DNA from: Trypanosoma brucei
Taxonomy: Eukaryota
Reading direction: 5' to 3'
DNA: 64,000 nt
Assembly (NCBI GenBank): GCA_000002445.1
Contig: CP000068.1
Span: 96,001-160,000, forward strand
Position numbers and translations under genes: made by a program. Shown here one piece after another: positions 6,101-38,962 of the stretch. Numbering within the stretch: position 1 is the stretch's first letter; each line of letters begins with the position of its first letter. The notes beneath the pieces were generated by a model. That model saw nothing but the letters and a program-made list of their open reading frames with translations. It made no database searches and had not been told where the DNA came from.

Positions 6101-8474
6101 CACCGACTGGTCATGGAGAGTATTTAAATACTGGGAAAAGTGACCCAATGGGAAATATGCCTCATAATCATCCCTGCTCTTTTTAGCCTTTGGTCATGCA
6201 ATAAACCAACGCCCTCTTACAATTCTATGTTTCCTCAATCACAAAGAGTGGCACACAACCCATCCTGTCATATGTCTCTTTGAAACTGTGCTAATGATAC
6301 GCGGCTGCTTCATTATTTGGGCATCCTTTTCTACAATGGGCAATTCAGATTTCCCTGTTTGATACTTTCTCTCTTTCCACATCATCTGTGCTATTCATAA
6401 TGCTCCAAACCTCATCAAATCGCTTACTCGCTGCTTGCATCATCCTCTGTCGTATCCACGAAAAGGAAATCATTCTCACATTCATTTCCTATTGGAGAGG
6501 TGAAGTCTTTTCCTCATCCCGTGAGGTCACCTTTGTTTTCCCTTGTGAGTGTCAAGGAATGCTGTGCCATCGATAATTTGGAAAGGTATTCCCTGTTATA
6601 AATCTCGTCTTCCCTCACACTGAGGCTGCACATTCCTCCCAATTGTATCTTACATCAAAGACAACAAAAAGAATCGACTTGCTTACGGAAGCTGTCACAC
6701 ATCTGAGATACCACACTGTGCTTCGTTGGAGTTCCATTGTGTAGATGTGCTTTCCCAATTGTATTAATAATATGTTGTCAATGTCGTGCTTCCATTGCAA
6801 CTACTGCCGCTGCGCGTGTCAGAAGTGATCTTCTCTTTATGGGATGTTCTATCATTACGTATGGTCTTTTCAGTATGGTGTCATTTTCCGCTTTGTGGTA
6901 ATGGCTATGAACTTCTTCCCCTTTCCTCCAGAGGTTCCTCCCTATGACTTTTCTCACACTGGTAATATCCTTTTCCCAGTTGATAATTATGCATCGTGCG
7001 ACTCTGTGGGTATCGCTTTTGAATTTCTTTGGAAGGTTCCCTCCAAAAAAATTCCACTATTGAGGCTTGCTTTTCGTATGAGTGTGGTATAACATTTTCC
7101 TTTTTTGGGAGCTGTATAATTTCTTTTCCTCCAATGCTGGCTAATTCAGTCCATTGATATTGCAACTGGATACCACTCTGGACGGAGCTTCCCGCAAGAT
7201 ATTATCGAATCCCCATTACAACATGTGTTGTGTTTGTTTGATGGGTTCATCTGTTACCGCATTGTAAAGACGGACCCAAAAACAACATCCGCGTCGGTGT
7301 GTCCAATAGAAATGATGGAAGAGCTCTCCTGTACTGAAATGGCAATGCTTTTTGCGAGTCGTAAACTTACAACAACAAATAAAAGTGCAGTTACATCCTA
7401 TGCTGGCATGCGGTAACGATTTTCCGCCAATGCATAAAAACTCCACATGACGAATTCCCTATTGCCCACATGTTTTAGTCCTCAGTCACACTCACTTTGC
7501 TATTCTATTGGCTCCTAAAACCAATGCCATGATGTACGGATGGCTTTGTGTGTGGTAACTGCAATAATGATAATAATAACTCCTTTCACCAATGAGTATA
7601 TTTTTTGGTTGTAAAAGTGCTCTTGGTGTCACTCCATTTTTCTTTTTTTTAATCCTCAGCTACTGAGGGGCTGTTGTATTTTTTATTAAAGAGTGATGCA
7701 CCGTTTTATTCCCCATCCCTTTTAGGTGACTTCCTCCTGCACAGTTTTTAATTTTTCATTGTAGAATGTTTCTCAAGGTGTTTCCTTTGTGAAGCTTTGG
7801 TCATGCTATTATTAAAGACCACTCAACTCCCTGCTTTCGGGACCTGCTGTTGCATTTATTCCCCTTTAGTTGCTGCAAATTTGTTTATTTGACAAATTGT
7901 ACTGCAATACTTCACTTGAACATATGTGTAACAACGTGTCTCGTTGCTTTGTAAAAATTCAAAAAGAACACATCAGGTGATATTCTTCTGTTCCTACTTC
8001 GTACATTCACATCTCTTCCCGTCAGTTCGGAAACTCCCACACAAACTCACCACTCTGTGAAGATTTGTAGTTTCCGTTAGTGATGGACGTACTCAAGTGG
8101 ACATGTTTGGCGCCTAAAAACTTACTTTCGAAGTTTACACTTTCTTGCAGACAGCTTCAGTCCGAGAGCAAAATGATAGTTAAACATCAACACAAAACGT
8201 AAATCCAAACTCCCATTGACGAGAGCCTTTAAAATAAATACAAAAATGTTCACCCTGCACGTTACGCCCGAAAGTACCTTATAAAAATAACATTAAGCAA
8301 GCATCAACAATTTGAATGGAGCCACAAGGACAATTAATGGCGTATAATATTTCCACTAAACCTTGCGTGGAAACCGTTAAATTGCATCAAGCACCTAATT
8401 TCAATTCCAGTTCCAAAATCATACACACATGTATCTATGTCTGTTCCTTCGTGTTCGGGCACCTGTGATAGTGT
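3117..8474. terminator. convergent strand-switch region between the + gene at 1653-3116 and the - ISG75 array. Putative Pol II termination zone.
   Basis: Gene orientation converges here. No credible ORFs. Contains the 390 bp dispersed element and GC-rich non-coding islands. Confidence 0.45.
5568..5960 (-). repeat. dispersed element of about 390 bp, copy 1, inside the left convergent strand-switch region
   Basis: Reverse complement of 31920-32310 at about 95% identity, read directly (for example …GGCGACGGTTGTTGAGTGTGTCTGCCGTTATTGTTGTTATC… and …GGGAAGGGGAAAACTCCAGAGACTGTTCAG…). Confidence 0.8.
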
Positions 8475-10043
8475 TTAAATATCACTGTCGAAACCTGCTG
8501 CGGTCTTCGTATTTTTGCTTTTAGCATTAGCCTCCTCTATGTTTATATCATCCTTCACCTCAGCCTTCCTACGGCCCCTAATAACAAAGAACACAAGCAA
8601 CCCAAGCAACAGCAAAAGCAAAGGAATTAAAAATATTAACACTTTCGTTGTCCCAATCCAGCCACTCTTGGCCTCGCTGCCCTCATCATCATGGTCAGCG
8701 TTTACGTCGTCCTCTTCACCACTTTCTTTCGACTCCTCTTTCAATTCCTCAGCCAATTTTTCTACATCCTTCTTCAGTTTCTCTTCAGATTCCTCGGCGC
8801 CCTCCTTGTCCCACCGCGCAACTTCTGCATCTTCGGTGGCTTTGACGCGCTCCTCCTCCGCTTCCTCAAATGCCTTTCTCGAATCTTTCACCTGCTTTTC
8901 TGCAGCCTTTTCAGTTGCCTCAGCTTCCTCAACAGCCTCCAGCAACATCTTTTTCTTTTCTTCACTCACCGGCTGACCCGCCTCCTTTGCCTTCTCAGCC
9001 TTCTCAGCTTCCAAGCGCCTGGCCTCCGCCTGTTCCTCAGCAGCCACTCGTCTCGCCTCAGCCTCCTCCAAAGCCTTTCTCGCTTCCTCAGCAGCCTTCT
9101 CAGCAGCCTGGCGTTTCGCCTCCTCCTCCGCCGCCCGCGCCTCTGCTGCTTTTTTCCATTCCAGATACTGTGCAAGAGACTCCCTTCCAATCTGTTGAAA
9201 TCTCTGAGCATAGTGAGTCACCCCCAAGGAATTGCGGACTAGAGTTTCAAGTTTGAGTATCGCATACCTTGCTGCATCGTAGTCCCACCGCCAACTTTCA
9301 AGCAGCGTGCATGGTTTATCGGAGGAGGACGCACTTCTTGACGAATGGCCGCTGCTGCACTCAACAGCATCCCTTGCATCAGCCTTGGGCTTTGCTCGAT
9401 TCCATGCCTCGACTGCCCCCTCCATGTTGGAGAAGGTCACATCAGTTTTTGCAGCCGGAATAGACTTGTACTCGCAATATATAACGTATGCGCGAGCGTC
9501 ATCATGTCCAAAATTTCGATGATAGTCATGTTTATACGCACTGGGATCGCAGTTTGCGTTAGCCATATGGTCAAACGAATCACGGATTGCTTCCTTGTTT
9601 ATACAGTGCCATTTTAGCAACTCCTTGAGAACTTTGCTCGAGTTCGCTGCAGCCCTCTTCGCCTTCTCCCATGCCTCCTCAACGCTCCTTTTCGTTCGGT
9701 TCGCTACACGTTGGACACCACGCATCTGATCCAACATCTTTTGTCCCAGCGCCGCCCTCATATCATCATGCTCTGACACTTTCTGAAAAATTTCTCTCGC
9801 GACCTTCAAATATTTCCAGGATTGCCTCTCTAGAAAGTCTGCTCTATCAGCAACACCGTCAAGCAACTTTTTCATGGTACACAGTGTCAACACAGCTTCA
9901 CCATCAAGTTTCCGCCCATTTATTGTTACATACTGCTTATATGCGACAGGTAAGTTGCTTGCCTTGGACACATCGAGCGCACATATGCCGCAGAGGAGAA
10001 ATACTGTTGCAGTAGTGCGTAATGTAACAGGCATCGTTGACAT
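8475..10043 (-). CDS. ISG75: invariant surface glycoprotein ISG75 family, copy A (subtype 1), 522 aa type-I membrane protein
   Basis: Signal peptide MSTMPVTLRTTATVFLLCGICALDV; ectodomain with conserved Cys and the motif FSNMEGAVEAWNRAKPK; EEA/KRQAAEKAAEEARK coiled coil; TM LIFLIPLLLLLLGLLVFFVI; short K-rich tail RGRRKAEVKDDINIEEANAKSKNTKTAAGFDSDI. Size matches the ISG75 of roughly 523 aa I recall. Near-identical over its C-terminal half to the five other copies in the window. Confidence 0.85.
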   Translation of the reverse strand: MSTMPVTLRTTATVFLLCGICALDVSKASNLPVAYKQYVTINGRKLDGEAVLTLCTMKKLLDGVADRADFLERQSWKYLKVAREIFQKVSEHDDMRAALGQKMLDQMRGVQRVANRTKRSVEEAWEKAKRAAANSSKVLKELLKWHCINKEAIRDSFDHMANANCDPSAYKHDYHRNFGHDDARAYVIYCEYKSIPAAKTDVTFSNMEGAVEAWNRAKPKADARDAVECSSGHSSRSASSSDKPCTLLESWRWDYDAARYAILKLETLVRNSLGVTHYAQRFQQIGRESLAQYLEWKKAAEARAAEEEAKRQAAEKAAEEARKALEEAEARRVAAEEQAEARRLEAEKAEKAKEAGQPVSEEKKKMLLEAVEEAEATEKAAEKQVKDSRKAFEEAEEERVKATEDAEVARWDKEGAEESEEKLKKDVEKLAEELKEESKESGEEDDVNADHDDEGSEAKSGWIGTTKVLIFLIPLLLLLLGLLVFFVIRGRRKAEVKDDINIEEANAKSKNTKTAAGFDSDI

Positions 10044-10633
10044 CCGTTAAAACTTATCTGTCACCCTCCTCTGATCACCACTTCCTCAGCTTGTCAGTCT
10101 CAACCTCACGTTACCTTGGCCGTAGAAATATGCAATCAACTACAGTCAAATATCCAAGAGAAAATAAGAAAGGGAAGGGAATCGATAGAAACGACCAAAG
10201 AGTAAAAATATGCGCGATTGAGCAAAGGAAATAATATGCGTATCCAATAGCGGATTTGTTGCAGTTCACCCGAACATGGACAACCTCCACGGCAGTCTTT
10301 CATTACACCCTTCATAGTAGCGCAAGGAATGTATGAATACCCTTAACACATGAAATAAGCAATACGTATGAAAAAAGGCATCAGCACTGGTATCCGCAGC
10401 TACCAATGCGGCCCTACCTCAAACCGGTAGTATGTGGGAAAAGGGTAATAACCTTGAGATGAGCTGCAAGGAACTGGTCAGACCGAAACATTACAAGCAA
10501 CGGTATAAAAAGCAAGAAACGAAAACATATAAAAAGCACCCTTATATCACTTATAGCAACCGATTTCAATTCCAAAATCATACACACAAATGCCTATACC
10601 TGTTCCTTCGTGTTCGGGCACCTGTGATAGTGT

Positions 10634-12205
10634 TTAAATATCACTGTCAAGACCTGCTGCGGTCTTCGTATTTTTGCTTTTAGCATTAGCTTCCCCTATG
10701 TTTATATCATCCTTCACCTCAGCCTTCCTACGGCCCCTAATAACAAAGAACACAAGCAACCCAAGCAACAGCAAAAGCAAAGGAATTAAAAATATTAACA
10801 CTTTCGTTGTCCCAATCCAGCCACTTTTGGCCTCGCTGCCCTCATCATCATGGTCAGCATTTACGTCGTCCCCTTCACCACTTTCTTTCGACTCCTCTTT
10901 CAATTCCTCAGCCAATTTTTCTACATCCTTCTTCAGTTTCTCTTCAGATTCCTCGGCGTCCTTCTTTTCCTCTTTTGCAGCCTCTGCATCTTCGGTGGCT
11001 TTGACGCGCTCCTCCTCCGCTTCCTCAAATGCCTTTCTCGAATCTTTTGCCTGCTTTTCTGCGGCCTTTTCAGTTGCCTCAGCTTCCTCAACAGCCTCCA
11101 GCAACATCTTTTTCTTTTCTTCACTCACCGGCTGACCCGCCTCCTTTGCCTTCTCAGCCTTCTCAGCTTCCAAGCGCCTGGCCTCCGCCTGTTCCTCAGC
11201 GGCCACTCGTCTCGCCTCAGCCTCCTCCAAAGCCTTTCTCGCTTCCTCAGCAGCCTTCTCAGCAGCCTGGCGTTTCGCCTCCTCCTCCGCCGCCCGCGCC
11301 TCTGCTGCTTTCCTTCTCTCCTCATGCTGTGCAAGAGACTCTTTGTAACCCTCTAGCACTTTCTTAGAGTAGTGAAAAACCCTTAAAGCTAGGGTCGCAT
11401 CCTTCTCGACCTTCGATATTAAATGTGCCGTTACTCTGTAGTTCCAAAGCCAGTTCTCCAGCACTGTGCATGGTCGTCCAGCGGGAGCTGCTTGGTGAGC
11501 GGGTGCGCCTGCTCCACATATCATAACACGAGCGGAGTACGGTTTGGGTTTTACCTGGTTCCATATTTCGAGTGCCCTCTCCATGTTGGAGAACGTCGTT
11601 TGTGTAATGACGCTGTCCACTACTTTGTAGTTGCATAAAATGCTGTATTTATGGGGATCAAGCCTCGAATGTTCATAGTAGTAGTCTCGCTTGTACGCGT
11701 TGGGTAAGCAGTTCTCATTTCGACCGTAGCCAGGAAGGACGTCATGACTCGCCGTCCTGTCAACACAATGCCACGTCAGCACTTGGTCGAGAGCTGCACT
11801 TGCATTTGCCGCCGCTGCCTTAGCCCGCTCTCCTGTGCCCCCCATGTACTTGATTATGCCATTGCCCAGCGATTTCATGTACTGTATTTCCCGAAGCTTA
11901 TTTGAAGGGAATGATAACTCCATTCCCTTGTCATCCGATATTTTACGAAAATTCGCATTCGCATTGTTGACATACATATACGCCTGCTGTTCAAACATGT
12001 CAACCCTGGAGTTCACGCCGTCAAGCATCTTCTTCATTTCGCACAGTGTCGTAGCCCCTTGTCCATCAAGTTGCCGAGCACCTGCTGTTACATATTGTTT
12101 TTGTGCAACAGAGAGCTCCTCCGCCCAAGTCACATCGAGCGCACATATGCCGCAGAGGAGAAATACTGTTGCAGTAGTGCGTAATGTAACAGGCATCGTT
12201 GACAT
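10634..12205 (-). CDS. ISG75: ISG75 family, copy B (subtype 2), 523 aa
   Basis: Same signal peptide, coiled coil, TM and tail as copy A. The ectodomain is of a second type (DVTWAEELSVAQKQYV..., ALEIWNQVKPKP, PCTVLENWLWNY). One tandem unit of about 2.16 kb. Confidence 0.85.
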   Translation of the reverse strand: MSTMPVTLRTTATVFLLCGICALDVTWAEELSVAQKQYVTAGARQLDGQGATTLCEMKKMLDGVNSRVDMFEQQAYMYVNNANANFRKISDDKGMELSFPSNKLREIQYMKSLGNGIIKYMGGTGERAKAAAANASAALDQVLTWHCVDRTASHDVLPGYGRNENCLPNAYKRDYYYEHSRLDPHKYSILCNYKVVDSVITQTTFSNMERALEIWNQVKPKPYSARVMICGAGAPAHQAAPAGRPCTVLENWLWNYRVTAHLISKVEKDATLALRVFHYSKKVLEGYKESLAQHEERRKAAEARAAEEEAKRQAAEKAAEEARKALEEAEARRVAAEEQAEARRLEAEKAEKAKEAGQPVSEEKKKMLLEAVEEAEATEKAAEKQAKDSRKAFEEAEEERVKATEDAEAAKEEKKDAEESEEKLKKDVEKLAEELKEESKESGEGDDVNADHDDEGSEAKSGWIGTTKVLIFLIPLLLLLLGLLVFFVIRGRRKAEVKDDINIGEANAKSKNTKTAAGLDSDI

Positions 12206-12801
12206 CCGTTAAAACTTATCTGTCACCCTCCTCTGATCACCACTTCCTCAGCTTGTCAGTCTCAACCTCACGTTACCTTGGCCGTAGAAATATGCAATCA
12301 ACTACAGTCAAATATCCAAGAGAAAATAAGAAAGGGAAGGGAATCGATAGAAACGACCAAAGAGTAAAAATATGCGCAATTGAGCAAAGGAAATAATATG
12401 CGTATCCAATAGCGGATTTGTTGCAGTTCACCCGAACATGGACAACCTCCACGGCAGTCTTTCATTACACCCTTCATAGTAGCGCAAGGAATGTATGAAT
12501 ACCCTTAACACATGAAATAAGCAATACGTATGAAAAAAGGCATCAGCACTGGTATCCGCAGCTACCAATGCGGCCCTACCTCAAACCGGTAGTATGTGGG
12601 AAAAGGGTAATAACCTTGAGATGAGCTGCAAGGAACTGGTCAGACCGAAACATTACAAGCAACGGTATAAAAAGCAAGAAACGAAAACATATAAAAAGCA
12701 CCCTTATATCACTTATAGCAACCGATTTCAATTCCAGTTCCAAAATCATACACACAAATGCCTATGTCTGTTCCTTCGTGTTCGGGCACAAGAGAAGGTG
12801 G

Positions 12802-14373
12802 TTAAATATCACTGTCAAGACCTGCTGCGGTCTTCGTATTTTTGCTTTTAGCACCGCCTTCCTCTATGTTTATATCATCCTTCACCTCAGCCTTCCTACG
12901 GCCCCTAATAACAAAGAACACAAGCAACCCAAGCAACAGCAAAAGCAAAGGAATTAAAAATACTAACACTTTCGTTGTCCCAATCCAGCCACTCTTGGCC
13001 TCGCTGCCCTCATCATCATGGTCAGCATTTACGTCGTCCTCTTCACCACTTTCTTTCGACTCCTCTTTCAATTCCTCCGCCAATTTTTCTACATCCTTCT
13101 TCAGTTCCTCTTCGGACCGTCCGATGGTATCCCTGTTCTGCTTTGCAGCCTCTGCATCTTCGGTGGCTTTGACGCGCTCCTCCTCCGCTTCCTCAAATGC
13201 CTTTCTCGAATCTTTTGCCTGCTTTTCTGCAGCCTTTTCAGTTGCCTCAGCTTTCTCAACAGCCTCCAGCAACATCTTTTTCTTTTCTTCACTCACCGGC
13301 TGACCCGCCTCCTTTGCCTTCTCAGCCTTCTCAGCTTCCAAGCGCCTGGCCTCCGCCTGTTCCTCAGCGGCCACTCGTCTCGCCTCAGCCTCCTCAAATG
13401 CCTTTCTCGCTTCCTCAGCAGCCTTCTCAGCAGCCTGGCGTTTCGCCTCCTCCTCCGCCGCCCGCGCCTCTGCTGCTTTCCTTCTCTCCTCATGCTGTGC
13501 AAGAGACTCCTTCGAACTTTCTAGGATTTTCTCAGAGTAGCGGTATACGAATAGAGCAACATCCAAATCCCTGTGGAGCCGCGCTATCAAGTGGGTTGCC
13601 ACTTCGTAGCTCCGCATCCAGTTCTCCAGCACTGTGCATGGTCGCCCTGGTGGAGCTGCTTGGTGAACGGGTGCGCCCGCTCCACATATCATAACACGCA
13701 TATGGTACGGCTTGGGCTTTACCTGGTTCCATATTTCGAGTGCCCTCTCCATGTTGGAGAACGTCGTTTGAGTAGTGGTGCTACTGACCACTTTGTAGTT
13801 GCATAAAATGCTGTATTTATGGGGATCAAGCCTCGAATGTTCATAGTAGTAGTCTCGCTTATACGCGTTAGGTTCACAATTTGCATTTGGAGTAGAACTG
13901 TATGAGGACTCGCGACTCTCCGTCCTGTCAACACAATGCCATTTTAGCACCTCATCGAGAGCTGCGCTTGCATTTGCCGCCGCCTTTTTAGCCCTTCCTT
14001 CGGTTGCATTCATGAGATATGCGATGTCGTCAAGCCTCGTCTTCATGTACTGCATTTGCTGATGTTGATCTCCAGATAGCGATGCTGCCATTACCTTGTC
14101 ATCCGATATTTTACGAAAATTCGCATTCGCATTGTTGACATACATATAGATTTGTTGTTCAAATGTGTCAACCCTGGAGTTCACACCGTCAAGCAACTTT
14201 TTCATGGTACACAGTGTCGCCGCAGCTTCACCATCAAGTTGCCGCCCATGTGCTGTCACATACTGTTTTTGCGCAACAGAGAGCTCCTCCGCCCAAGTCA
14301 CATCGAGCGCACATATGCCGCAGAGGAGAAATACTGTTGCAGTAGTGCATAATGTAACAGGCATCGTTGACAT
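12802..14373 (-). CDS. ISG75: ISG75 family, copy C (subtype 2), 523 aa
   Basis: As copy B but with patchwise differences in the ectodomain (for example ESSYSSTPNANCEPNAYKR versus HDVLPGYGRNENCLPNAYKR). C-terminal 230 aa almost identical to the other copies. Confidence 0.85.
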   Translation of the reverse strand: MSTMPVTLCTTATVFLLCGICALDVTWAEELSVAQKQYVTAHGRQLDGEAAATLCTMKKLLDGVNSRVDTFEQQIYMYVNNANANFRKISDDKVMAASLSGDQHQQMQYMKTRLDDIAYLMNATEGRAKKAAANASAALDEVLKWHCVDRTESRESSYSSTPNANCEPNAYKRDYYYEHSRLDPHKYSILCNYKVVSSTTTQTTFSNMERALEIWNQVKPKPYHMRVMICGAGAPVHQAAPPGRPCTVLENWMRSYEVATHLIARLHRDLDVALFVYRYSEKILESSKESLAQHEERRKAAEARAAEEEAKRQAAEKAAEEARKAFEEAEARRVAAEEQAEARRLEAEKAEKAKEAGQPVSEEKKKMLLEAVEKAEATEKAAEKQAKDSRKAFEEAEEERVKATEDAEAAKQNRDTIGRSEEELKKDVEKLAEELKEESKESGEEDDVNADHDDEGSEAKSGWIGTTKVLVFLIPLLLLLLGLLVFFVIRGRRKAEVKDDINIEEGGAKSKNTKTAAGLDSDI

Positions 14374-14902
14374 CCGTTAAAACTTATCTGTCACCCTCCT
14401 CTGATCACCACTTCCTCAGCTTGTCAGTCTCAACCTCACGTTACCTTGGCCGTAGAAATATGCAATCAACTACAGTCAAATATCCAAGAGAAAATAAGAA
14501 AGGGAAGGGAATCGATAGAAACGACCAAAGAGTAAAAATATGCGCGATTGAGCAAAGGAAATAATATGCGTATCCAATAGCGGATTTGTTGCAGTTCACC
14601 CGAACATGGACAACCTCCACGGCGGTCTTTCATTACACCCTTCATAGTAGCGCAAGGAATGTATGAATACCCTTAACACATGAAATAAGCAATACGTATG
14701 AAAAAAGGCATCAGCACTGGTATCCGCAGCTACCAATGCGGCCCTACCTCAAACCGGTAGTATGTGGGAAAAGGGTTGTAGTTGTAAAGTTTTCTGTAAA
14801 ATTCCTGAAATGTGACAAAAGATTGTGAAAAGACGAAACCGGCAGCAGATGGGGGAAGGGGGAAGGGAGCGGCGTTGTCAAGTGCGACGAAGATTTTTTA
14901 CG

Positions 14903-16561: not shown

Positions 16562-17215
16562 TGGAAACCATCAAAACTTATCTGTCACCCTCCTCTGATC
16601 ACCACTTCCTCAGCTTGTCAGTCTCAACCCCACGTTACCTTGGCCGTAGAAATATGCAATCAACTACAGTCAAATATCCAAGAGAAAATAAGAAAGGGAA
16701 GGGAATCGATAGAAACGACCAAAGAGTAAAAATATGCGCGATTGAGCAAAGGAAATAATATGCGTATCCAATAGCGGATTTGTTGCAGTTCACCCGAACA
16801 TGGACAACCTCCACGGCAGTCTTTCATTACACCCCTCGTAGTAGCTGCAAACCTCGGCATGCTATGAGCCATCCGGCCACCGCAGCTCCCCTTGGTGATG
16901 GTGTTGAGTGCGTTGAGCTAAAGTGCCTTTACAAATAAAGGCCAAAGTGACCATTTCAGAAGATAGCACAAGGCCTGTCAAATCATAAAAAAGAGCAGGA
17001 GCACGGGAAATGGCTGCTGAGAAAAAAGACAAAGAGGTGTATAGATAAAAGGGGGAAGCAGCTAGATGGTGGAACGCTTTACGACTGTGGCAGCCGCAAG
17101 GGTGCAGCAAAGTCTATGATGTTTGAAAAACGGTTGCGGCACATACCACGAAGCATCAACAACAGTGCTGGGTGGCGAAACACAAAGTGACAGAGTCGCT
17201 CGCGGTTTACTGTAT

Positions 17216-17238
17216 CACACACACACACACACACACAC
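17216..17238. repeat. (CA)11 microsatellite
   Basis: Read directly from the sequence. Confidence 0.95.
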
Positions 17239-20200: not shown

Positions 20201-20391
20201 CGTCGTCCCCACCGCCCTTCACGCACGATAAGCAATGTTACGTCCCGCACCATCCTGTAAGAAAATTACGGAAGAAGAATCCAACTCCCTTTTAAGGCGT
20301 AGAACTCCGAAACGATCAGCCTTCAATGAGAGTAGAAGCCTCCACCACGCACGCCTGCACTGAAGTCGACATCTCGGCAGCGAAGAGCCGC

Positions 20392-20392
<1 letters not shown>

Positions 20393-20447
<55 letters not shown>
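20393..20447. repeat. compound microsatellite (CA)14(TA)13 in the divergent strand-switch region
   Basis: Read directly from the sequence. Confidence 0.95.
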
Positions 20448-23400: not shown

Positions 23401-25423
23401 AGTTGCAGTGGGGATGGGGAAATTGAGAGAGAGTACAGAAGACGCTGACGCTGGCGATGTTAAGTGTGGTGTCACCAACTGGAAAAGATTGGGGGGTTAG
23501 AAAAACTTTCAAAATGAAACGCAGTTACACAACCGAAAAGGGTGGGAGTGAGATGAAGAGGACGTGTGGAGGCGTGCCTTTAGTTGTCGCGGATGTAGGA
23601 GCCACCGTGACTCGTAAAAAGAGATGGTACAGTTACCTGTTCACGGCATTCTTACACTTGTAAGCAGTGGTGGAGGACGCAATAGAAGTGAGGATGAATA
23701 CGCCTCAAACTGCGTTAGTTAGCTCGTACAGATCATGTATTACGGGCATATCTGACTCCCAACCCCAGCATACAAGAGAGTTTTTCTTTTTGCTGACTTC
23801 ACATATCTGTTACTGTCTGAAGTTCCAAACTGTGTTTAATAACAGATAATCTGTTGTATTGACGCTAATATTGTTGCGCTAATTTTTTTTTTTTAAATCA
23901 TGTATCCGCGAGGGAATTTGACGTGGTTTTTTTGGTGTGAAGTGAAAAGAGCACCCGCAAAGCAGGTATCGTGCACATATCATTTATCTACCTTTTGTCT
24001 TTTCAACAAAAAATTACAGGGGTCGTCTTCGTCATGATGGGCTCCCTCATCCACGCCACGTGCCCATATGGAGTTTTATTGGCTGGTTGCGCCACGTTTC
24101 ACCCAGACGAATTCGCAAAACTAAAGGCACATGGTCAGAATTTAAAAAAAAAAAGGAAGCCGTATAAAGCAACGAAAAGGGGGAAAATGTGACAGACATC
24201 GCGCATTTGTCCACTGGAATCGAGGTAAATACATATAAAGGCAGGTAACCTTCTCACGCGTCTGTTTCCCTGCACACAAGTATTTGATGTATTGGTTGGC
24301 GTTACAGTTGCTTTCGCTGCTCGCTATCTCAACCTGAGGAGTTCTTAGAAGTATATAAAGTGAGGAATATAGGGCAGGTGCGGGCTAGATGTTCTTTCCG
24401 TGCGTTCAGCCAATAATGCAGTTGTGATTATTCGTCACGCATGTTCTTTTTTATATTTTACCCTCCCCACTGCTGAGATCAGTCCCCTTCTCGTGGGCTA
24501 CCGACTTATATTCTCCTGCTGCGTATCTGTGGTCGTGCAATTCGTTGTGGCAGTGACTGTTGCGATGTCAAAGGAACGATTTCATAACCGACGCGTGAGC
24601 ACAAATCGCTTGATCTCTAATAGCTCGTGGTCTACTAGCGCAAAAAATCAAGGTATTTCGTCTCCTAAACGCGAAACTGATTTTTTTTTTCAGTGATTTG
24701 CCTGTTGTCATGAGGAACTGCGCAGCCATCTGCCCACGATGGTGGCTCCAACAGCGGGGCTCCACCAGTAAGTGATGTAGCAACCAAAGCGCCAACAGTA
24801 CGCACCGTTATCGTCCACAGGCCACTGAACGCAAGCACCACCAACAATCCATAAGAGCATCGCCCTGACGGTCGCACACCGCGCGGTAATCCTGCACTAA
24901 CAAACAATAAGGACTCCATGAAACATTTACCGGAAACAACCATTGTGACCAGAAATTACAACTGCGGATATACAACAAGAAGTTAGTGTGAAGCATATGC
25001 ACTTCTACCTCAGTCATCTCAACTTCAAAATAACCAACATATATCCGTAACTAAACAACGTATGTCTTGACACACCCAAATTTTTTTTTTTTACTATCAC
25101 CCACACGATAAATATTTCCTCGACAAACCAAGGGTTACCTTTCTTACCTTGCGCAAAATAACACTGTTACTCGGAAATTTCACATCGTCAGTCCAACCCA
25201 CCTTTTGTATTATTACAAAACATTTACAAATACTATTTCCTTTGCTCAATTGCGCATATTTTTACTCTTTGGTCGTTTCTATCGATTCCCTTCCCTTTCT
25301 TATTTTCTCTTGGATATTTGACTGTAGTTGATTGCATATTTCTACGGCCAAGGTAACGTGGGGTTGAGACTGACAAGCTGAGGAAGTGGTGATCAGAGGA
25401 GGGTGACAGATAAGTTTTAACGG

Positions 25424-26992
25424 ATGTCAACGATGCCTGTTACATTACGCACTACTGCAACAGTATTTCTCCTCTGCGGCATATGTGCGCTCGATGTGAC
25501 TCTGGCCGCAGACCTTCCACTTACAAGTAGGCAGTTCGTAACAAACGGACGTATGCTTGACGGGCGGGGTGCTTTGACACTGTGCGAAATGAAGAAGACG
25601 CTTGACGGTGTGAACTCCAGGGTTGACACATTTGAACAACAAATCCTTACGTTCGTCAACAATGCGAATGCGAATTTTCGTAAAATATCGGATGACAAGG
25701 TAATGGCAGCATCGCTCTCCGCGAGCAGGCTACAGGAAATGCAGTACATGAAATCGCTGGGCAATAGCATAATCAAGTACATGGGGGGCACAGGAGAGCG
25801 GGCTAAGGCAGCGGCGGCAAATGCAAGCGCAGCTCTCGACCAAGTGCTGACGTGGCATTGTGTTGACAGGACGGCGAGTCACGAGTCCTCATACAGTTCT
25901 ACTCCAAATGCAAATTGTGAACCTAACGCGTATAAGCGAGACTACTACTATGAACATTCGAGGCTTGATCCCCATAAATACAGCATTTTATGCAACTACA
26001 AAGTGGTCAGTAGTACCACTACTCAAACGACGTTCTCCAACATGGAGAGGGCACTCGAAATATGGAACCAGGTAAAACCCAAACCGTACTCCGCTCGTGT
26101 TATGATATGTGGAGCAGGCGCACCCGCTCACCAAGCAGCTCCCGCTGGACGACCATGCACAGTGCTGGAGAACTGGGTGCGAGACTACAGAGTAACGGCA
26201 CATTTGATAGCAAAGCTCGAGAAGGATGCGACCCTAGCTCTAAGGGTTATGCGCTACTCTGAGAAAGTGCTAGAGGGTGACAAAGAGTCTCTTGCACAGC
26301 ATGAGGAGAGAAGGAAAGCAGCAGAGGCGCGGGCGGCGGAGGAGGAGGCGAAACGCCAGGCTGCTGAGAAGGCTGCTGAGGAAGCGAGAAAGGCTTTGGA
26401 GGAGGCTGAGGCGAGACGAGTGGCCGCTGAGGAACAGGCGGAGGCCAGGCGCTTGGAAGCTGAGAAGGCTGAGAAGGCAAAGGAGGCGGGTCAGCCGGTG
26501 AGTGAAGAAAAGAAAAAGATGTTGCTGGAGGCTGTTGAGGAAGCTGAGGCAACTGAAAAGGCTGCAGAAAAGCAGGCAAAAGATTCGAGAAAGGCATTTG
26601 AGGAAGCGGAGGAGGAGCGCGTCAAAGCCACCGAAGATGCAGAGGCTGCAAAAGAGGAAAAGGAGGACGCCGGACGGTCCGAAGAGGAACTGAAGAAGAG
26701 TCTCGAAAAATTGGCGGAGGAATTGAAAGAGGAGTCGAAAGAAAGTGGTGAAGAGGACGACGTAAATGCTGACCATGATGATGAGGGCAGCGAGGCCAAA
26801 AGTGGCTGGATTGGGACAACGAAAGTGTTAATATTTTTAATTCCTTTGCTTTTGCTGTTGCTTGGGTTGCTTGTGTTCTTTGTTATTAGGGGCCGTAGGA
26901 AGGCTGAGGTGAAGGATGATATAAACATAGAGGAAGGCGGTGCTAAAAGCAAAAATACGAAGACAGCAGCAGGTCTTGACAGTGATATTTAA
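25424..26992 (+). CDS. ISG75: ISG75 family, copy E (subtype 2, mosaic of the B-type and C-type ectodomains), 522 aa
   Basis: Same domain organisation. The ectodomain mixes B-like segments (SLGNSIIKYMGGTGERAKAAAANASAALDQVLTWHCVDRTASH) and C-like segments (ESSYSSTPNANCEPNAYKR, KVMAASLS). Lies on the opposite strand from copies A-D. Confidence 0.85.
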   Translation: MSTMPVTLRTTATVFLLCGICALDVTLAADLPLTSRQFVTNGRMLDGRGALTLCEMKKTLDGVNSRVDTFEQQILTFVNNANANFRKISDDKVMAASLSASRLQEMQYMKSLGNSIIKYMGGTGERAKAAAANASAALDQVLTWHCVDRTASHESSYSSTPNANCEPNAYKRDYYYEHSRLDPHKYSILCNYKVVSSTTTQTTFSNMERALEIWNQVKPKPYSARVMICGAGAPAHQAAPAGRPCTVLENWVRDYRVTAHLIAKLEKDATLALRVMRYSEKVLEGDKESLAQHEERRKAAEARAAEEEAKRQAAEKAAEEARKALEEAEARRVAAEEQAEARRLEAEKAEKAKEAGQPVSEEKKKMLLEAVEEAEATEKAAEKQAKDSRKAFEEAEEERVKATEDAEAAKEEKEDAGRSEEELKKSLEKLAEELKEESKESGEEDDVNADHDDEGSEAKSGWIGTTKVLIFLIPLLLLLLGLLVFFVIRGRRKAEVKDDINIEEGGAKSKNTKTAAGLDSDI

Positions 26993-27444
26993 CCACCTTC
27001 TCTTGTGCCCGAACACGAAGGTACAGATATAGGCATTTGTGTGTATGATTTTGGAATTGAAATCGGTTGCTATAAGTGATATAAGGGTGCTTTTTATATG
27101 TTTTCGTTTCTTGCTTTTTATACCGTTGCTTGTAATGTTTCGGTCTGACCAGTTCCTTGCAGCTCATCTCAAGGTTATTACCCTTTTCCCACATACTACC
27201 GGTTTGAGGTAGGGCCGCATTGGTAGCTGCGGATACCAGTGCTGATGCCTTTTTTCATACGTATTGCTTATTTCATGTGTTAAGGGTATTCATACATTCC
27301 TTGCGCTACTATGAAGGGTGTAATGAAAGACTGCCGTGGAGGTTGTCCATGTTCGGGTGAACTGCAACAAATCCGCTATTGGATACGCATATTATTTCCT
27401 TTGCTCAATCGCGCATATTTTTACTCTTTGGTCGTTTCTATCGA

Positions 27445-27486
27445 TTCCCTTCCCTTTCTTATTTTCTCTTGGATATTTGACTGTAG
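27445..27486 (+). promoter_or_regulatory. polypyrimidine tract plus first downstream AG: predicted spliced-leader trans-splice acceptor for ISG75 copy F. The same motif lies upstream of every ISG75 unit, for example 25286-25327 (+) and 10156-10182 (- strand).
   Basis: TTCCCTTCCCTTTCTTATTTTCTCTT followed by ...GACTGTAG about 100 nt upstream of the ATG. This matches the kinetoplastid poly-Y/AG processing signal. Confidence 0.55.
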
Positions 27487-27582
27487 TTGATTGCATATTT
27501 CTACGGCCAAGGTAACGTGAGGTTGAGACTGACAAGCTGAGGAAGTGGTGATCAGAGGAGGGTGACAGATAAGTTTTAACGG

Positions 27583-29151
27583 ATGTCAACGATGCCTGTT
27601 ACATTACGCACTACTGCAACAGTATTTCTCCTCTGCGGCATATGTGCGCTCGATGTGTCCAAGGCAAGCAACTTACCTGTCGCATATAAGCAGTATGTAA
27701 CAATAAATGGGCGGAAACTTGACGGGCGGGGTGCTTTGACACTGTGTACCATGAAAAAGTTGCTTGACGGTGTTGCTGATAGAGCAGACTTTCTAGAGAG
27801 GCAATCCTGGAAATATTTGAAGACAGTGCAGGAAATTTTTCAGAAAGTGTCAGAGCATGATGATATGAAGGCGGCCCTTGGCGAAAAGAAGCTGCAGGAA
27901 ATGCATAATGTAATGGCCATATCAGCAACCACTGGAACGTACGTTGGTGAAGCGTGGGGAAAGGCGAAGAGGGCTGCAGCGAACTCGAGCAAAGTTCTCA
28001 AGGAGTTGCTAAAATGGCACTGTATAAACAAGGAAGCAATCCGTGATTCGTTTGACCATATGGCTAACGCAAACTGCGATCCCAGTGCGTATAAACATGA
28101 CTATCATCGAAATTTTGGACATGATGACGCTCGCGCATACGTTATATATTGCGAGTACAAGTCTATTCCGGCTGCAAAAACTGATGTGACCTTCTCCAAC
28201 ATGGAGGGGGCAGTCGAGGCATGGAATCGAGCAAAGCCCAAGGCTGATGCAAGGGATGCTGTTGAGTGCAGCAGCGGCCATTCGTCAAGAAGTGCGTCCT
28301 CCTCCGATAAACCATGCACGCTGCTTGAAAGTTGGCGGTGGGACTACGACTTGGCAGCACATTGCATTGAAAAACTTGAAAGATACACCAGAAATGCATT
28401 ACAAACAGTTCATTACGCTCAAAAATTCCTACATAAAGGAAAGGAGTCTCTTGCACAGTATCTGGAATGGAAAAAAGCAGCAGAGGCGCGGGCGGCGGAG
28501 GAGGAGGCGAAACGCCAGGCTGCTGAGAAGGCTGCTGAGGAAGCGAGAAAGGCTTTGGAGGAGGCTGAGGCGAGACGAGTGGCTGCTGAGGAACAGGCGG
28601 AGGCCAGGCGCTTGGAAGCTGAGAAGGCTGAGAAGGCAAAGGAGGCGGGTCAGCCGGTGAGTGAAGAAAAGAAAAAGATGTTGCTGGAGGCTGTTGAGGA
28701 AGCTGAGGCAACTGAAAAGGCTGCAGAAAAGCAGGTGAAAGATTCGAGAAAGGCATTTGAGGAAGCGGAGGAGGAGCGCGTCAAAGCCACCGAAGATGCA
28801 GAAGTTGCGCGGTGGGACAAGGAGGGCGCCGAGGAATCTGAAGAGGAACTGAAGAAGGATGTAGAAAAATTGGCTGAGGAATTGAAAGAGGAGTCGAAAG
28901 AAAGTGGTGAAGAGGACGACGTAAACGCTGACCATGATGATGAGGGCAGCGAGGCCAAGAGTGGCTGGATTGGGACAACGAAAGTGTTAATATTTTTAAT
29001 TCCTTTGCTTTTGCTGTTGCTTGGGTTGCTTGTGTTCTTTGTTATTAGGGGCCGTAGGAAGGCTGAGGTGAAGGATGATATAAACATAGAGGAGGCTAAT
29101 GCTAAAAGCAAAAATACGAAGACCGCAGCAGGTTTCGACAGTGATATTTAA
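27583..29151 (+). CDS. ISG75: ISG75 family, copy F (subtype 1, closest to copy A), 522 aa
   Basis: N-terminus DVSKASNLPVAYKQYVTINGRKLDG and tail ...EEANAKSKNTKTAAGFDSDI as in copy A. Patchwise differences in the mid-ectodomain. Its 3' flank (29152-29379) is the reverse complement of copy A's 3' flank (8248-8474). Confidence 0.85.
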   Translation: MSTMPVTLRTTATVFLLCGICALDVSKASNLPVAYKQYVTINGRKLDGRGALTLCTMKKLLDGVADRADFLERQSWKYLKTVQEIFQKVSEHDDMKAALGEKKLQEMHNVMAISATTGTYVGEAWGKAKRAAANSSKVLKELLKWHCINKEAIRDSFDHMANANCDPSAYKHDYHRNFGHDDARAYVIYCEYKSIPAAKTDVTFSNMEGAVEAWNRAKPKADARDAVECSSGHSSRSASSSDKPCTLLESWRWDYDLAAHCIEKLERYTRNALQTVHYAQKFLHKGKESLAQYLEWKKAAEARAAEEEAKRQAAEKAAEEARKALEEAEARRVAAEEQAEARRLEAEKAEKAKEAGQPVSEEKKKMLLEAVEEAEATEKAAEKQVKDSRKAFEEAEEERVKATEDAEVARWDKEGAEESEEELKKDVEKLAEELKEESKESGEEDDVNADHDDEGSEAKSGWIGTTKVLIFLIPLLLLLLGLLVFFVIRGRRKAEVKDDINIEEANAKSKNTKTAAGFDSDI

Positions 29152-29379
29152 ACACTATCACAGGTGCCCGAACACGAAGGAACAGACATAGGCATTTGTG
29201 TGTATGATTTTGGAACTGGAATTGAAATTAGGTGCTTGATGCAATTTAACGGTTTCCACGCAAGGTTTAGTGGAAATATTATACGCCATTAATTGTCCTT
29301 GTGGCTCCATTCAAATTGTTGATGCTTGCTTAATGTTATTTTTATAAGGTACTTTCGGGTGTAACGGTGCAGGGTGAAC

Positions 29380-34460: not shown

Positions 34461-35025
34461 ATATGAATATATGAAAATATGAACTGATATACGAATATAT
34501 TACAAACGAGGAGTGTAAAATCACTTCACTCTTGCCGAATTTTTTTCTTTAAAAAAAAAAAAAAAAAAGAGTGCTCCCCACTGCAGACGCAAGAAGACAA
34601 TATCCGATACTGTAGCTATTGTGTCTATTTTGATTCCTGTGTGTATGCAAAGAAAACAAAAATGGACAGTGGGACAAAATAATTTTCAATCCCAGCAAGT
34701 TGCCTACAGAGAAGTTACGGAGCTAAAGCAAACAGCAGTGCCAATAATGACGATAACAACAATAAATGAATTCAAATAACCGCTGGATAAAAGCGTCGTA
34801 TTCGCTCAATAACACTCTTTACATTACTTCAACATGTTGCTGCGTTTGGACTGGAAGTGCACTGAGGAGGGGGAAAAAAAAAAAGAAAGTAACGCATGCA
34901 ACGACTGCATCTTTTCCTTTTCAGTATTGATAAAGGCGAGGAAACGGGAAGGAGGAAGAGGCGGTGTTCGTGAATCAGCGAAACCGAATTGAATATCAAA
35001 AACAAGAAAAAAAAATGGAGAAACG

Positions 35026-38297: not shown

Positions 38298-38432
38298 ACC
38301 TTTACTACTAGTTTCAACGACACACTAAGCCTGAAATGCAATAACCACAACACATCCACATTCATTTTTTTTATACGTACAAATACGTACAAATATATAA
38401 ACAAGGGGAAAACATTGTATAAAACAGTAATT

Positions 38433-38650: not shown

Positions 38651-38962
38651 TGGAACAAAAAAAGAAAATTATATGTATCGTGTCTCACATACAACAGAAC
38701 CACCTTAGATCATGTGATAAAGAGAAAAAAAAAATATAACCGTGCTCTCAGAGTGCCGGAAGCAGTCTACTGATGTCATTAACATCAGAAGAAAACCGGT
38801 AGCACCTGATATGTTATAGTTGACATCCTATTTGTAAAAATAAAATCGTTGAAACATACTCGCTTAAATTTACCGTCTTGAGTCTACCATTAAAGTTATT
38901 AAATGAAATTCATGTCTGCTCGTATTATCCTCCTCACGCTGAAATAACATGGATTATAGACC

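What the first reader, a model, noticed from the sequence alone, without database searches (positions are those of the whole stretch)
8248..29379. The ISG75 locus is a 21 kb palindrome: two short opposing gene arrays made only of ISG75 genes, emanating from one gene-free divergent strand-switch region
Copies A-D run on the - strand and copies E-F on the + strand. The outermost copy on each side (A and F) is subtype 1 and the inner copies (B, C, E) are subtype 2. The 3' flank of A is the exact reverse complement of the 3' flank of F. The locus therefore arose by inverted duplication around the 16.8-25.2 kb centre. The result is a tiny bidirectional Pol II unit whose only cargo is the six ISG75-family genes, closed off on both sides by convergent strand-switch regions. 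Such an arrangement would give this surface-protein family its own start region and make it prone to palindrome-mediated rearrangement and copy-number change (4 copies versus 2).
Basis: seen in the sequence. Interest (0 to 1): 0.6.

Follow-up and report, generated by a model that had tools for sequence, protein, structure and literature searches.

The report
ISG75 genes in two mirrored arrays
The six ISG75 surface-protein genes on Trypanosoma brucei chromosome 5 do sit in two opposing, partly mirror-image arrays around a gene-free transcription start region, but the locus and its two small transcription units are already annotated and published, so the finding is real and mostly ordinary.

Summary
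The window is T. brucei TREU927 chromosome 5 (window position + 153,095). The six genes are Tb927.5.350 to Tb927.5.400.

**Observation: largely confirmed.**
- Four ISG75 genes lie on the minus strand and two on the plus strand.
- A and F are one subtype; B, C and E are another; D is a 37%-identical outlier.
- 8245-12399 is the inverted repeat of 25230-29382 (94.3% over 4.2 kb).

**Two overstatements.**
- The 3' flanks are about 97% identical, not exact.
- Only 2 x 4.15 kb of the 21 kb is mirrored. C, D and an 8.4 kb unique spacer have no mirror partner.

**Interpretation: essentially right, but not new.**
- Kolev et al. 2010 already list Tb927.5.380->350 and Tb927.5.390->400 as two divergent Pol II units.
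- Bdf3 sites map to the spacer and to both arms.
- A 2023 paper maps the two-strand locus in Lister 427.

**What I add.**
- The arms are a mosaic of 100%-identical blocks and short hypervariable patches.
- 38 sites against 1 show sequence exchange between the arms after the strains split.
- Arm copy number differs between assemblies: 4+2, 3+5, 5+4 and 5+1.
- D is absent from two other assemblies, between direct repeats.
- The spacer block is inverted in the DAL972 assembly, which could be real or a misjoin.
- A 388-bp outer inverted pair is conserved in all three genomes.

Interest is low to moderate.

The parts
8245..12399 (-). Left inverted-repeat arm: the two-gene module A (subtype 1) + B (subtype 2), with the 3' flank, the intergenic region and B's upstream region
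   Evidence: Self-BLAST against 29382-25230: 94.3% over 4181 columns. Mosaic identity profile.
25230..29382 (+). Right inverted-repeat arm: E (subtype 2) + F (subtype 1)
8475..10043 (-). A = Tb927.5.350, ISG75 subtype 1, 522 aa
10634..12205 (-). B = Tb927.5.360, ISG75 subtype 2 (2a), 523 aa
12802..14373 (-). C = Tb927.5.370, ISG75 subtype 2, 523 aa. It has no mirror partner; its N-terminal domain branches alone among the copies of the three genomes compared.
14903..16561 (-). D = Tb927.5.380, divergent ISG75-like gene, 552 aa, about 37% identical to the others. Absent from the DAL972 and IVM-t1 loci.
25424..26992 (+). E = Tb927.5.390, ISG75 subtype 2 (2b), 522 aa
27583..29151 (+). F = Tb927.5.400, ISG75 subtype 1 variant, 522 aa
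16851..25229 (.). Unique 8379-bp spacer, the divergent strand-switch / Pol II start region. The GT/AC polarity switches at about 20519. No long ORF, no RNA-family hit.
   Evidence: Kolev 2010 Table S14. Bdf3 site at 18881-19281.
20392..20419 (.). (CA)14 microsatellite about 100 bp from the strand-composition switch
16476..16850 (-). D's upstream region plus signal-peptide start. It is the innermost left repeat: inverted against 25230-25511 and direct against 14282-14655.
25230..25511 (+). E's upstream region plus signal-peptide start, the innermost right repeat
14282..14655 (-). Direct repeat (96.5%) of 16476-16850. The pair brackets the D segment that is missing in DAL972 and IVM-t1.
5567..5955 (.). 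Left copy of the outer 388-bp inverted pair, inside the left convergent strand-switch region
   Evidence: 98.2% to 32306-31919. Conserved in DAL972 and IVM-t1.
31919..32306 (.). Right copy of the outer 388-bp inverted pair, inside the right convergent strand-switch region
3117..8474 (.). Left convergent strand-switch region, between the ESAG5-related Tb927.5.340 (+) and A (-)
29152..33278 (.). Right convergent strand-switch region, between F (+) and the ISG65-like Tb927.5.410 (-)

Best explanation
This is the annotated ISG75 locus of T. brucei TREU927 chromosome 5 (Tb927.5.350 to Tb927.5.400).

**Structure.** Two short polycistronic Pol II units run outwards from one 8.4-kb gene-free divergent strand-switch region. 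Each ends at a convergent strand-switch region. The distal two-gene module (subtype 2 followed by subtype 1, plus about 230 nt of 3' flank) is present on both sides in mirror orientation. The locus is therefore an inverted repeat with 4.15-kb arms, plus two unpaired genes (C and D) on the left.

**How it works (inferred).** Pol II starts in both directions across the GT-rich halves of the spacer. Trans-splicing and polyadenylation cut out the individual ISG75 mRNAs. The family's bloodstream-stage expression is set after transcription.

**How it evolves.** The 2.16-kb units recombine freely.
- Gene conversion, including conversion between the opposed arms, keeps the 5' UTR/signal peptide, the C-terminal half and the intergenic DNA at about 98-100% identity in the five canonical copies (A, B, C, E, F).
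- The N-terminal ectodomain keeps its subtype-specific and hypervariable patches.
- Unequal exchange between direct repeats changes the copy number of each arm and removes or adds D.

**Origin.** An inverted duplication of a [subtype 2 - subtype 1] module (or an equivalent long-tract conversion between arms) in the Trypanozoon lineage is the likely origin.

**Shown and inferred.** Shown here: the structure, gene identity, mosaic pattern, inter-arm exchange signal and differences between assemblies. Taken from the literature: the start-region status. Inferred: the origin event and the recombination mechanisms.
For: - **Identity of the locus.** Exact protein matches to TREU927. Coordinates match Tb927_05_v5.1.
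- **Inverted arms.**
- **Mosaic.** 100%-identical blocks with divergent patches. All five canonical copies are 97-100% identical in the 5' region and the C-terminal half.
- **Inter-arm exchange.** Outside the patches, the distal subtype-1 unit differs by 14 substitutions between the 927 arms and by 13 between the IVM-t1 arms. The same arm differs by 48-55 between 927 and IVM-t1. At 38 sites both arms of one genome share a state; only 1 site groups the arms by side.
- **The two-arm layout is reproduced elsewhere.** It is seen in DAL972 and IVM-t1 and is described for Lister 427.
- **Copy numbers.** 4+2 (927), 3+5 (DAL972), 5+4 (IVM-t1), 5+1 (Lister 427).
- **D.** The missing segment is exactly the one between the direct repeats 14282-14655 and 16476-16850.
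- **Start region.** Kolev Table S14, Bdf3 sites, GT-rich sense strands with a switch at 20519 (compared).
- **Both arms give mRNA.** .350.360.370.390 and .400 are all raised 2.4- to 6.2-fold in bloodstream forms.
Against: - No chromatin or nascent-RNA track was examined directly. Start-region status rests on a published table and on peak coordinates. Reads in near-identical gene copies map ambiguously, so the two Bdf3 sites inside genes B and E are weak evidence.
- DAL972 (Sanger, one 100-N gap in the right arm) and IVM-t1 (long-read, many frameshifts) may misrepresent copy number in 2.16-kb repeats.
- Conversion among tandem copies and conversion between arms cannot be fully separated.
- The mirror order (subtype 1 outermost on both sides) does not hold in Lister 427 and is imperfect in DAL972.
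Confidence: 0.85

Rival explanations
1. Assembly artefact. The opposite-strand genes or the mirrored arms result from a misassembled tandem array.
For: The units are 2.16-kb near-identical repeats, which are hard to assemble. DAL972 has an N gap inside the right arm.
Against: - The same two-arm layout around the same unique spacer is seen in TREU927, DAL972 and the long-read IVM-t1 assembly. It is also described for the Lister 427 2018 assembly.
- Each arm is joined to different unique flanking DNA with no gap in the window (0 N).
- Published transcription-unit calls treat the arms as separate divergent units.
Confidence: 0.03
2. There was no single inverted duplication. An ancestral head-to-head pair of ISG75 genes flanking a start region expanded independently by tandem duplication on each side. 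Later gene conversion between arms then copied the subtype-2/subtype-1 order and the 3' flank from one arm to the other.
For: - Inter-arm conversion is clearly active.
- Arm composition differs a lot between strains.
- The mirror order is imperfect in DAL972 and absent in Lister 427.
- No homology exists between the arm ends and the outer 388-bp pair.
Against: - The inverted homology is one continuous 4.15-kb block with sharp ends at equivalent points (8245 and 29382). This is what a module duplication gives.
- A further inverted pair lies 2.3-2.5 kb outside both arms in all three genomes, which suggests a once larger mirrored segment.
- In a T. congolense contig, the ESAG5-related neighbour is followed by a single co-directional ISG75-like gene with no inverted copy.
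Confidence: 0.25
3. Active flip-flop palindrome. Recombination between the inverted arms inverts the arm-spacer-arm block, so the orientation of the start region relative to the chromosome varies between strains, as the DAL972 assembly shows.
For: - Window 16476-25135 aligns to DAL972 in reverse orientation, while both unique flanks are collinear. IVM-t1 is collinear throughout.
- Arm composition travels with spacer polarity. In DAL972 and IVM-t1 the arm on the '16476 side' begins 2a,2b,2a; in 927 it runs D, C, 2a, 1. The arm on the '25135 side' begins 2b in all three.
- A flip keeps GT-rich sense strands facing both arms, so it should be neutral.
Against: - One end of the flipped block lies at the 100-N gap of DAL972.
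- The unit next to that gap is 99.5% identical to the left-arm unit (13 mismatches in 2830 bp). One wrong join inside a repeat would give the same picture.
- No paper found reports this inversion.
Confidence: 0.35

Closest known systems
Divergent strand-switch regions / Pol II transcription start regions of T. brucei (Siegel 2009, from my own knowledge; Kolev 2010, PMC2936537; Wedel 2017, PMC5579346)
   Same: - Head-to-head gene clusters around a gene-free region.
- Listed as 'Divergent' units in Kolev Table S14.
- A Bdf3 site lies in the spacer.
- The sense strand is GT-rich on both sides.
   Different: - The units are short (4 and 2 genes) and carry one gene family only.
- The first genes on the two sides are inverted copies of each other.
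- H2A.Z domains of about 10 kb (Wedel 2017 text) would cover most or all of each unit.
Large palindromes with arm-to-arm gene conversion, such as the human Y-chromosome ampliconic palindromes (Rozen et al. 2003, from my own knowledge)
   Same: - Inverted arms carry a multi-copy gene family.
- The arms are more alike within a genome than the same arm is between lineages.
- There is potential for spacer inversion.
   Different: - The arms are only 4.15 kb and the spacer is larger than the arms.
- Arm identity is a mosaic (100% blocks plus divergent patches), not uniformly above 99.9%.
- Extra unpaired tandem copies are present.
Other tandem surface-protein gene arrays of T. brucei, such as ISG65 on chromosome 2 and the ISG65-like genes at 33-38 kb of this window
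   Same: - Near-identical tandem units homogenised by concerted evolution.
- Expressed in the bloodstream stage.
- Copy number varies.
   Different: The ISG65-like genes in this window (33-38 kb) all lie on one strand inside a longer unit, Tb927.5.600->410 in Kolev Table S14; the one-strand layout of the chromosome 2 ISG65 array is from my own knowledge. The ISG75 arrays are split across a start region in opposite orientation.
Published ISG75 locus descriptions (Makarov et al. 2023, PMC9896412; the two ISG75 groups of Tran et al. 2006, from my own knowledge)
   Same: - Six genes on chromosome 5.
- Genes lie on both strands (their Fig. 2A, for Lister 427).
- A variant copy sits at one end.
- Two sequence groups are recognised.
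   Different: The papers I could read do not describe the mirror-image module, the inter-arm conversion, the D deletion or the DAL972 orientation difference.

Membership tests
ISG75 / ISG65-75 invariant surface glycoprotein family | Match to Pfam PF11727 above the curated cut-off | tested here: met
   All six genes score 52.9-60.4 bits against a cut-off of 25.1.
ISG75 / ISG65-75 invariant surface glycoprotein family | Identity with the annotated ISG75 proteins of T. brucei | tested here: met
   Exact matches to XP_844709 to XP_844714, named '75 kDa invariant surface glycoprotein'. D is a 37%-identical outlier.
ISG75 / ISG65-75 invariant surface glycoprotein family | Type I membrane protein layout: signal peptide, ectodomain, one transmembrane helix, short cytoplasmic tail | tested here: inconclusive
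   The alignment shows a hydrophobic N-terminus and a hydrophobic stretch near the C-terminus (LIFLIPLLLLLLGLLVFFVI), followed by the basic run RGRR, in the five canonical copies; D keeps a related stretch. No topology predictor was run.
T. brucei divergent strand-switch / Pol II start region | Head-to-head gene clusters around a region with no gene | tested here: met
   D (-) and E (+) flank an 8.4-kb spacer with no stop-free stretch above 126 codons, no tRNA and no Rfam hit.
T. brucei divergent strand-switch / Pol II start region | GT-rich coding strand on each side | tested here: met
   Counts of 10-mers with at least 9 G/T: left half 50 on the plus strand and 170 on the minus strand; right half 174 on the plus strand and 91 on the minus strand. 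The switch is at 20519. The criterion is from Wedel 2017.
T. brucei divergent strand-switch / Pol II start region | Enrichment of H2A.Z, H2B.V, H4K10ac or Bdf3 | not testable with these tools
   Literature only. 'High-confidence' Bdf3 CUT&RUN sites lie at chr5 171976-172376 (window 18881-19281), 164452-164852 and 178710-179110. No histone tracks were available.
T. brucei divergent strand-switch / Pol II start region | 5'-triphosphate (primary) transcripts in both directions | not testable with these tools
   Literature only. Kolev 2010 lists both ISG75 units as 'Divergent' and states that enrichment was seen at every divergent unit. Per-site read data were not seen.
Convergent strand-switch / Pol II termination region | Tail-to-tail gene orientation | tested here: met
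   Tb927.5.340 (+) faces A (-), and F (+) faces Tb927.5.410 (-).
Convergent strand-switch / Pol II termination region | Base J, H3.V and H4.V enrichment | not testable with these tools
   No data were found for these two regions. The Tb927.5.400 text hits turned out to be Tb927.5.4000.
DNA palindrome / large inverted repeat with arm-to-arm conversion | Two arms in inverted orientation with high identity | tested here: met
   4181 columns, 94.3% overall, and 100% in most 100-bp windows.
DNA palindrome / large inverted repeat with arm-to-arm conversion | Spacer short relative to the arms, and symmetry across the whole structure | tested here: not met
   The mirrored arms are 12.8 kb apart (8.4 kb unique spacer plus the unpaired C and D). 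Only about 8.3 of 21 kb is mirrored.
DNA palindrome / large inverted repeat with arm-to-arm conversion | Arms more alike within a genome than the same arm is between lineages | tested here: met
   13-14 differences between arms within a genome against 48-55 for the same arm between 927 and IVM-t1. 38 sites group by genome and 1 groups by side.
DNA palindrome / large inverted repeat with arm-to-arm conversion | Spacer inversion polymorphism | tested here: inconclusive
   The spacer is inverted in the DAL972 assembly and collinear in IVM-t1. A misjoin next to the N gap cannot be excluded.

The most novel reading that the evidence does not exclude
The ISG75 locus is a recombinationally active inverted-repeat module. 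Exchange between the opposed arrays flips the whole arm-spacer-arm block between strains, as in the DAL972 assembly. The flip does not disturb transcription, because the bidirectional start region is symmetric. The same exchange shuffles short hypervariable ectodomain patches and changes arm copy number. This would give a supposedly 'invariant' surface receptor (the suramin receptor) a built-in way to vary its sequence and dosage.
Probability: 0.3. Interest if true: 0.45.

Novelty: already known. Interest (0 to 1): 0.3.

Why it matters
ISG75 is an abundant bloodstream-stage surface protein and mediates suramin uptake. Its copy number and sequence variation could therefore affect drug sensitivity and serodiagnosis.

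It is useful to know three things about the locus:
- The genes sit in two opposed arrays.
- The arrays exchange sequence.
- The arrays differ in copy number between strains: 4+2, 3+5, 5+4 and 5+1.

This helps when designing knock-outs (multi-cut CRISPR editing of this locus gave a ~100-kb deletion of adjacent chromosome 5 DNA; PMC9896412), when mapping short reads, and when interpreting chromatin peaks inside the repeats.

It does not change the current picture of trypanosome transcription. The two divergent ISG75 units were already catalogued in 2010, and short single-family units are common in this part of the genome.

Tried and rejected
- **RNA genes.** Rfam at gathering threshold and a tRNA scan over the whole window found only tRNA-Arg at 42372-42444 and nothing in the spacer.
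- **Spacer ORFs.** Six-frame ORF lists of the spacer and both convergent regions found nothing longer than 152 codons outside the genes. I did not run family searches on these short ORFs.
- **Centromere satellite.** Tandem Repeats Finder found no 147-bp satellite, so the AT-rich 45-54 kb stretch is not a centromere array.
- **Outer 388-bp pair.** RNA folding of both strands gave z = -1.1 and +1.6, so there is no sign of a structured RNA.
- **Sensitive alignment of the outer flanks.** Apart from the ~230-nt 3'-flank repeat and the 388-bp pair, there is no inverted or direct homology between the two flanks.
- **Homologues of D.** Only Trypanozoon ISG75 proteins were found.
- **Exhaustive search with A.** This added four T. 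congolense clusters, but their contigs are 3-16 kb fragments. They show only a single co-directional ISG75-like gene next to the ESAG5-related orthologue, so the age of the inverted layout stays unresolved.
- **Literature.**
  - No paper was found that describes the mirror structure or a DAL972 inversion.
  - One search was badly designed and wasted.
  - Hits for 'Tb927.5.400' in base-J termination papers were really Tb927.5.4000.
  - Siegel 2009 is not held in the library.
- **T. equiperdum OVI.** The contig carrying D is only 2.1 kb and has no context.

Full report
**Where the window comes from.** All six ORFs in the finding are exact matches to proteins of Trypanosoma brucei brucei TREU927 carried on a 1,608,198-bp record. 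Gene coordinates printed in a paper's supplement (Tb927.5.350 at Tb927_05_v5.1:161570-163138, and so on) equal window coordinates plus 153,095. The genes are:
- A = Tb927.5.350 (8475-10043, -)
- B = Tb927.5.360 (10634-12205, -)
- C = Tb927.5.370 (12802-14373, -)
- D = Tb927.5.380 (14903-16561, -)
- E = Tb927.5.390 (25424-26992, +)
- F = Tb927.5.400 (27583-29151, +)

The neighbours are the ESAG5-related gene Tb927.5.340 (1653-3116, +; gene number assigned from its position in Kolev Table S14) and the ISG65-like gene Tb927.5.410 (33279-34460, -).

**Checking the observation.**
- Strand layout and family membership are confirmed. All six genes exceed the Pfam PF11727 cut-off.
- Subtypes are confirmed. 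A/F are 92% identical in protein, B/C/E are 82-88%, the two subtypes are 65-68% to each other, and D is about 37% to all the others.
- A self-comparison of the window finds 8245-12399 inverted against 29382-25230 at 94.3% over 4181 columns with E = 0.
- The claim that the two 3' flanks are exact reverse complements is wrong in detail. They are 227 and 228 nt long and differ by one indel and about five substitutions, about 97% identity.
- The label '21 kb palindrome' also overstates the symmetry. Only the distal two-gene module is mirrored. C and D have no partner. The centre is 8379 bp of unique sequence (16851-25229) with no internal symmetry.

**Anatomy of the repeats.** In 100-bp windows the arms are mostly 100% identical, with a few strongly divergent windows:
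- 9181-9280: 55%
- 9681-9780: 64%
- 11681-12180: about 76%

Aligning the five canonical units shows three zones:
- The roughly 180 bp upstream of the ATG and the signal-peptide region are 97-100% identical in every copy on both strands.
- Most of the C-terminal half of the coding sequence is likewise 97-100% identical in every copy, with a few windows at 80-93%.
- The N-terminal ectodomain carries the subtype differences and the hypervariable patches.

Homology stops sharply at 8245 and 29382 on the outside. On the inside it stops at 16850 and 25230.

**An extra outer pair.** A further 388-bp inverted pair (5567-5955 and 31919-32306, 98.2%) lies 2.3-2.5 kb outside each arm, with no detectable homology in between. 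Both copies are present at the same places in two other genomes. They show no RNA-structure signal. Each copy has the same orientation relative to its adjacent subtype-1 gene. This fits a once larger mirrored segment, but the pair remains unexplained.

**The centre as a start region.**
- The spacer has no stop-free stretch above 126 codons, no tRNA and no Rfam match.
- Its base composition switches polarity at about 20519, about 100 bp from a (CA)14 microsatellite. In the left half, 10-mers with at least 9 G/T number 50 on the plus strand and 170 on the minus strand. In the right half they number 174 on the plus strand and 91 on the minus strand. Each half is therefore GT-rich on the strand that is sense for the genes it faces. 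Wedel et al. 2017 report this property for T. brucei start regions.
- Kolev et al. 2010, Table S14, lists 'Tb927.5.380 -> Tb927.5.350, -, Divergent' and 'Tb927.5.390 -> Tb927.5.400, +, Divergent' among the putative Pol II units. Their text states that 5'-triphosphate reads were enriched at every divergent unit.
- The same table gives Tb927.5.340 as a one-gene unit and Tb927.5.600 -> 410 as the next minus-strand unit.
- A Bdf3 CUT&RUN study lists sites at chr5 171976-172376 (window 18881-19281, in the spacer). It also lists sites inside B and E, and names all six ISG75 genes as lying within 5 kb of high-confidence sites.
- Microarray data show that .350.360.370.390 and .400 are all expressed and are raised in bloodstream forms.

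The 'bidirectional unit with only ISG75 cargo' is therefore correct, and it is already in the literature. Table S14 contains many one- to few-gene units, so the small size is not unusual.

**Other genomes.** I rebuilt the orthologous region of T. b. gambiense DAL972 (FN554968.1, 64312-121766) and of T. b. equiperdum IVM-t1 (CM010676.1, 107048-157176) from overlapping fetched loci, with no conflicts in the overlaps. Both have two opposed ISG75 arrays around the same spacer (98.1-98.3% identical to the window). This rules out an assembly artefact in TREU927. Copy numbers differ:

| Assembly | Minus-strand arm | Plus-strand arm | Source |
|---|---|---|---|
| TREU927 | 4 | 2 | |
| DAL972 | 3 | 5 (one cut by a 100-N gap, one frameshifted) | |
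| IVM-t1 | 5 | about 4 | |
| Lister 427 (2018) | 5 contiguous on one strand | 1 on the opposite strand | paper text and supplement, |

A tree of the N-terminal domains separates subtype 1, two subtype-2 lineages (2a, B-like; 2b, E-like) and the lone copy C. Subtype 1 is outermost on both sides in TREU927 and IVM-t1. It is next to outermost on the right in DAL972.

**Loss of D.** D is absent from the DAL972 and IVM-t1 loci. The missing segment (window 14675-16475) is exactly the one bracketed by the direct repeats 14282-14655 and 16476-16850, which are 96.5% identical. This fits loss or gain by unequal exchange.

**Sequence exchange between the arms.** I compared the distal subtype-1 unit (2.4 kb) outside the hypervariable patches.
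- The two arms differ by 14 substitutions in TREU927 and by 13 in IVM-t1.
- The same arm differs by 48 (left) and 55 (right) between those two genomes.
- At 38 variable sites both arms of one genome share one state and both arms of the other genome share the alternative. Only one site groups the arms by side.

All three genomes share the two-arm layout. This pattern therefore requires transfer of sequence between the opposed arms after the lineages separated. In other words, the arms evolve in concert across the strand switch.

**Inverted spacer in DAL972.** Window 16476-25135 aligns to DAL972 in reverse orientation, although both unique flanks are collinear. IVM-t1 is collinear throughout. 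Arm composition follows spacer polarity: in DAL972 and IVM-t1 the arm attached to the '16476 end' begins 2a,2b,2a, while in TREU927 it runs D, C, 2a, 1. The arm attached to the '25135 end' begins 2b in all three. In DAL972 the whole arm-spacer-arm block therefore appears flipped, as recombination between the outermost inverted copies would produce. Such a flip keeps the GT-rich sense strands facing outward, so it should be neutral.

There is a serious caveat. One end of the flipped block coincides with the 100-N gap. The unit next to the gap is 99.5% identical to the corresponding left-arm unit, with 13 mismatches in 2830 bp. A single wrong join in the Sanger assembly would give the same result. 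I put about 35% on a real inversion.

**How old is the layout?** An exhaustive profile-free search with A found only six clusters at 50% identity: ISG75 itself, D, and four from T. congolense IL3000. On one 13-kb T. congolense contig, an orthologue of the ESAG5-related neighbour (44% identity) is followed on the same strand by a single ISG75-like gene, with no inverted copy. This hints that the inverted layout arose within Trypanozoon. The contigs are too short to decide.

**Comparison with what is known.**
- As a transcription feature, this is an ordinary, already catalogued divergent strand-switch region.
- As a genome structure, it behaves like a small large-spacer inverted repeat with arm-to-arm conversion. 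That is comparable in kind to sex-chromosome palindromes, but the spacer is longer than the arms and the arms are a mosaic.
- As a gene family, it is the known ISG75 family with its two known sequence groups.
- Makarov et al. 2023 already draw a locus map with genes on both strands.
- In the papers I could search, I found no description of the mirror module, the inter-arm conversion signal, the repeat-bounded absence of D, the conserved outer 388-bp pair, or the DAL972 orientation difference. These are incremental additions.

**Verdict.** The remaining open point is whether the block truly flips between strains, and this can be tested with long reads. Interest is 0.3.

Noticed in passing
window 5567-5955 and 31919-32306: A 388-bp inverted pair (98.2%) lies in the two convergent strand-switch regions, 2.3-2.5 kb outside each ISG75 arm, with no homology in between. 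Both copies are conserved at the same places in DAL972 and IVM-t1. There is no RNA-structure signal, and the function is unknown.
   Followed up: partly
window 14675-16475 (gene D, Tb927.5.380): The divergent 552-aa ISG75-like gene is absent from the DAL972 and IVM-t1 loci. The missing segment is bounded by the 375-bp direct repeats 14282-14655 and 16476-16850. An identical protein occurs only in TREU927 and on a 2.1-kb T. equiperdum OVI contig. It is not among the ISG75 genes listed as raised in bloodstream forms in Jensen 2009.
   Followed up: partly
window 9181-9280, 9681-9780 and 11681-12180 (with their partners on the right arm): Short hypervariable patches (55-78% identity) sit inside otherwise 100%-identical arm sequence, all within the N-terminal ectodomain. 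In DAL972 and IVM-t1 the distal subtype-1 copies on both arms are A-like, so TREU927 F is the outlier.
   Followed up: partly
DAL972 FN554968.1, about 87346-96071 (composite positions 23035-31760): The central spacer, together with the arm order, is inverted relative to TREU927 and IVM-t1. One end of the flipped block abuts a 100-N gap at record 102541-102640.
   Followed up: partly
L009 (T. congolense IL3000, CAEQ01000452.1) 3925-6854: An orthologue of the ESAG5-related gene (44% identity) is followed on the same strand by a single ISG75-like gene of 262 aa. In T. brucei the adjacent ISG75 array is on the opposite strand.
   Followed up: partly
window 33279-38297 and 38432-41714: Three ISG65-like genes lie on the minus strand (33279-34460, 35026-36147, 37164-38297; the first two were checked against Pfam). 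Near-identical repeats lie among and beyond them: 35276-35787/37420-37931 at 97.9%, 35966-36302/38116-38452 at 100%, and 38432-38655/41490-41714 at 99.1%. The last pair flanks a trans-sialidase gene (38963-41317).
   Followed up: no
window 42372-42444 (-) and 45000-54000: A single tRNA-Arg(ACG) gene sits inside the long minus-strand unit. It is followed by an AT-rich stretch (GC 0.30-0.38) that has only short AT microsatellites and no 147-bp centromere-type satellite.
   Followed up: no
window 20392-20419 and 17216-17237: CA microsatellites occur in the spacer. The longer one, (CA)14, lies about 100 bp from where the GT/AC strand bias switches, and its length differs in DAL972.
   Followed up: no
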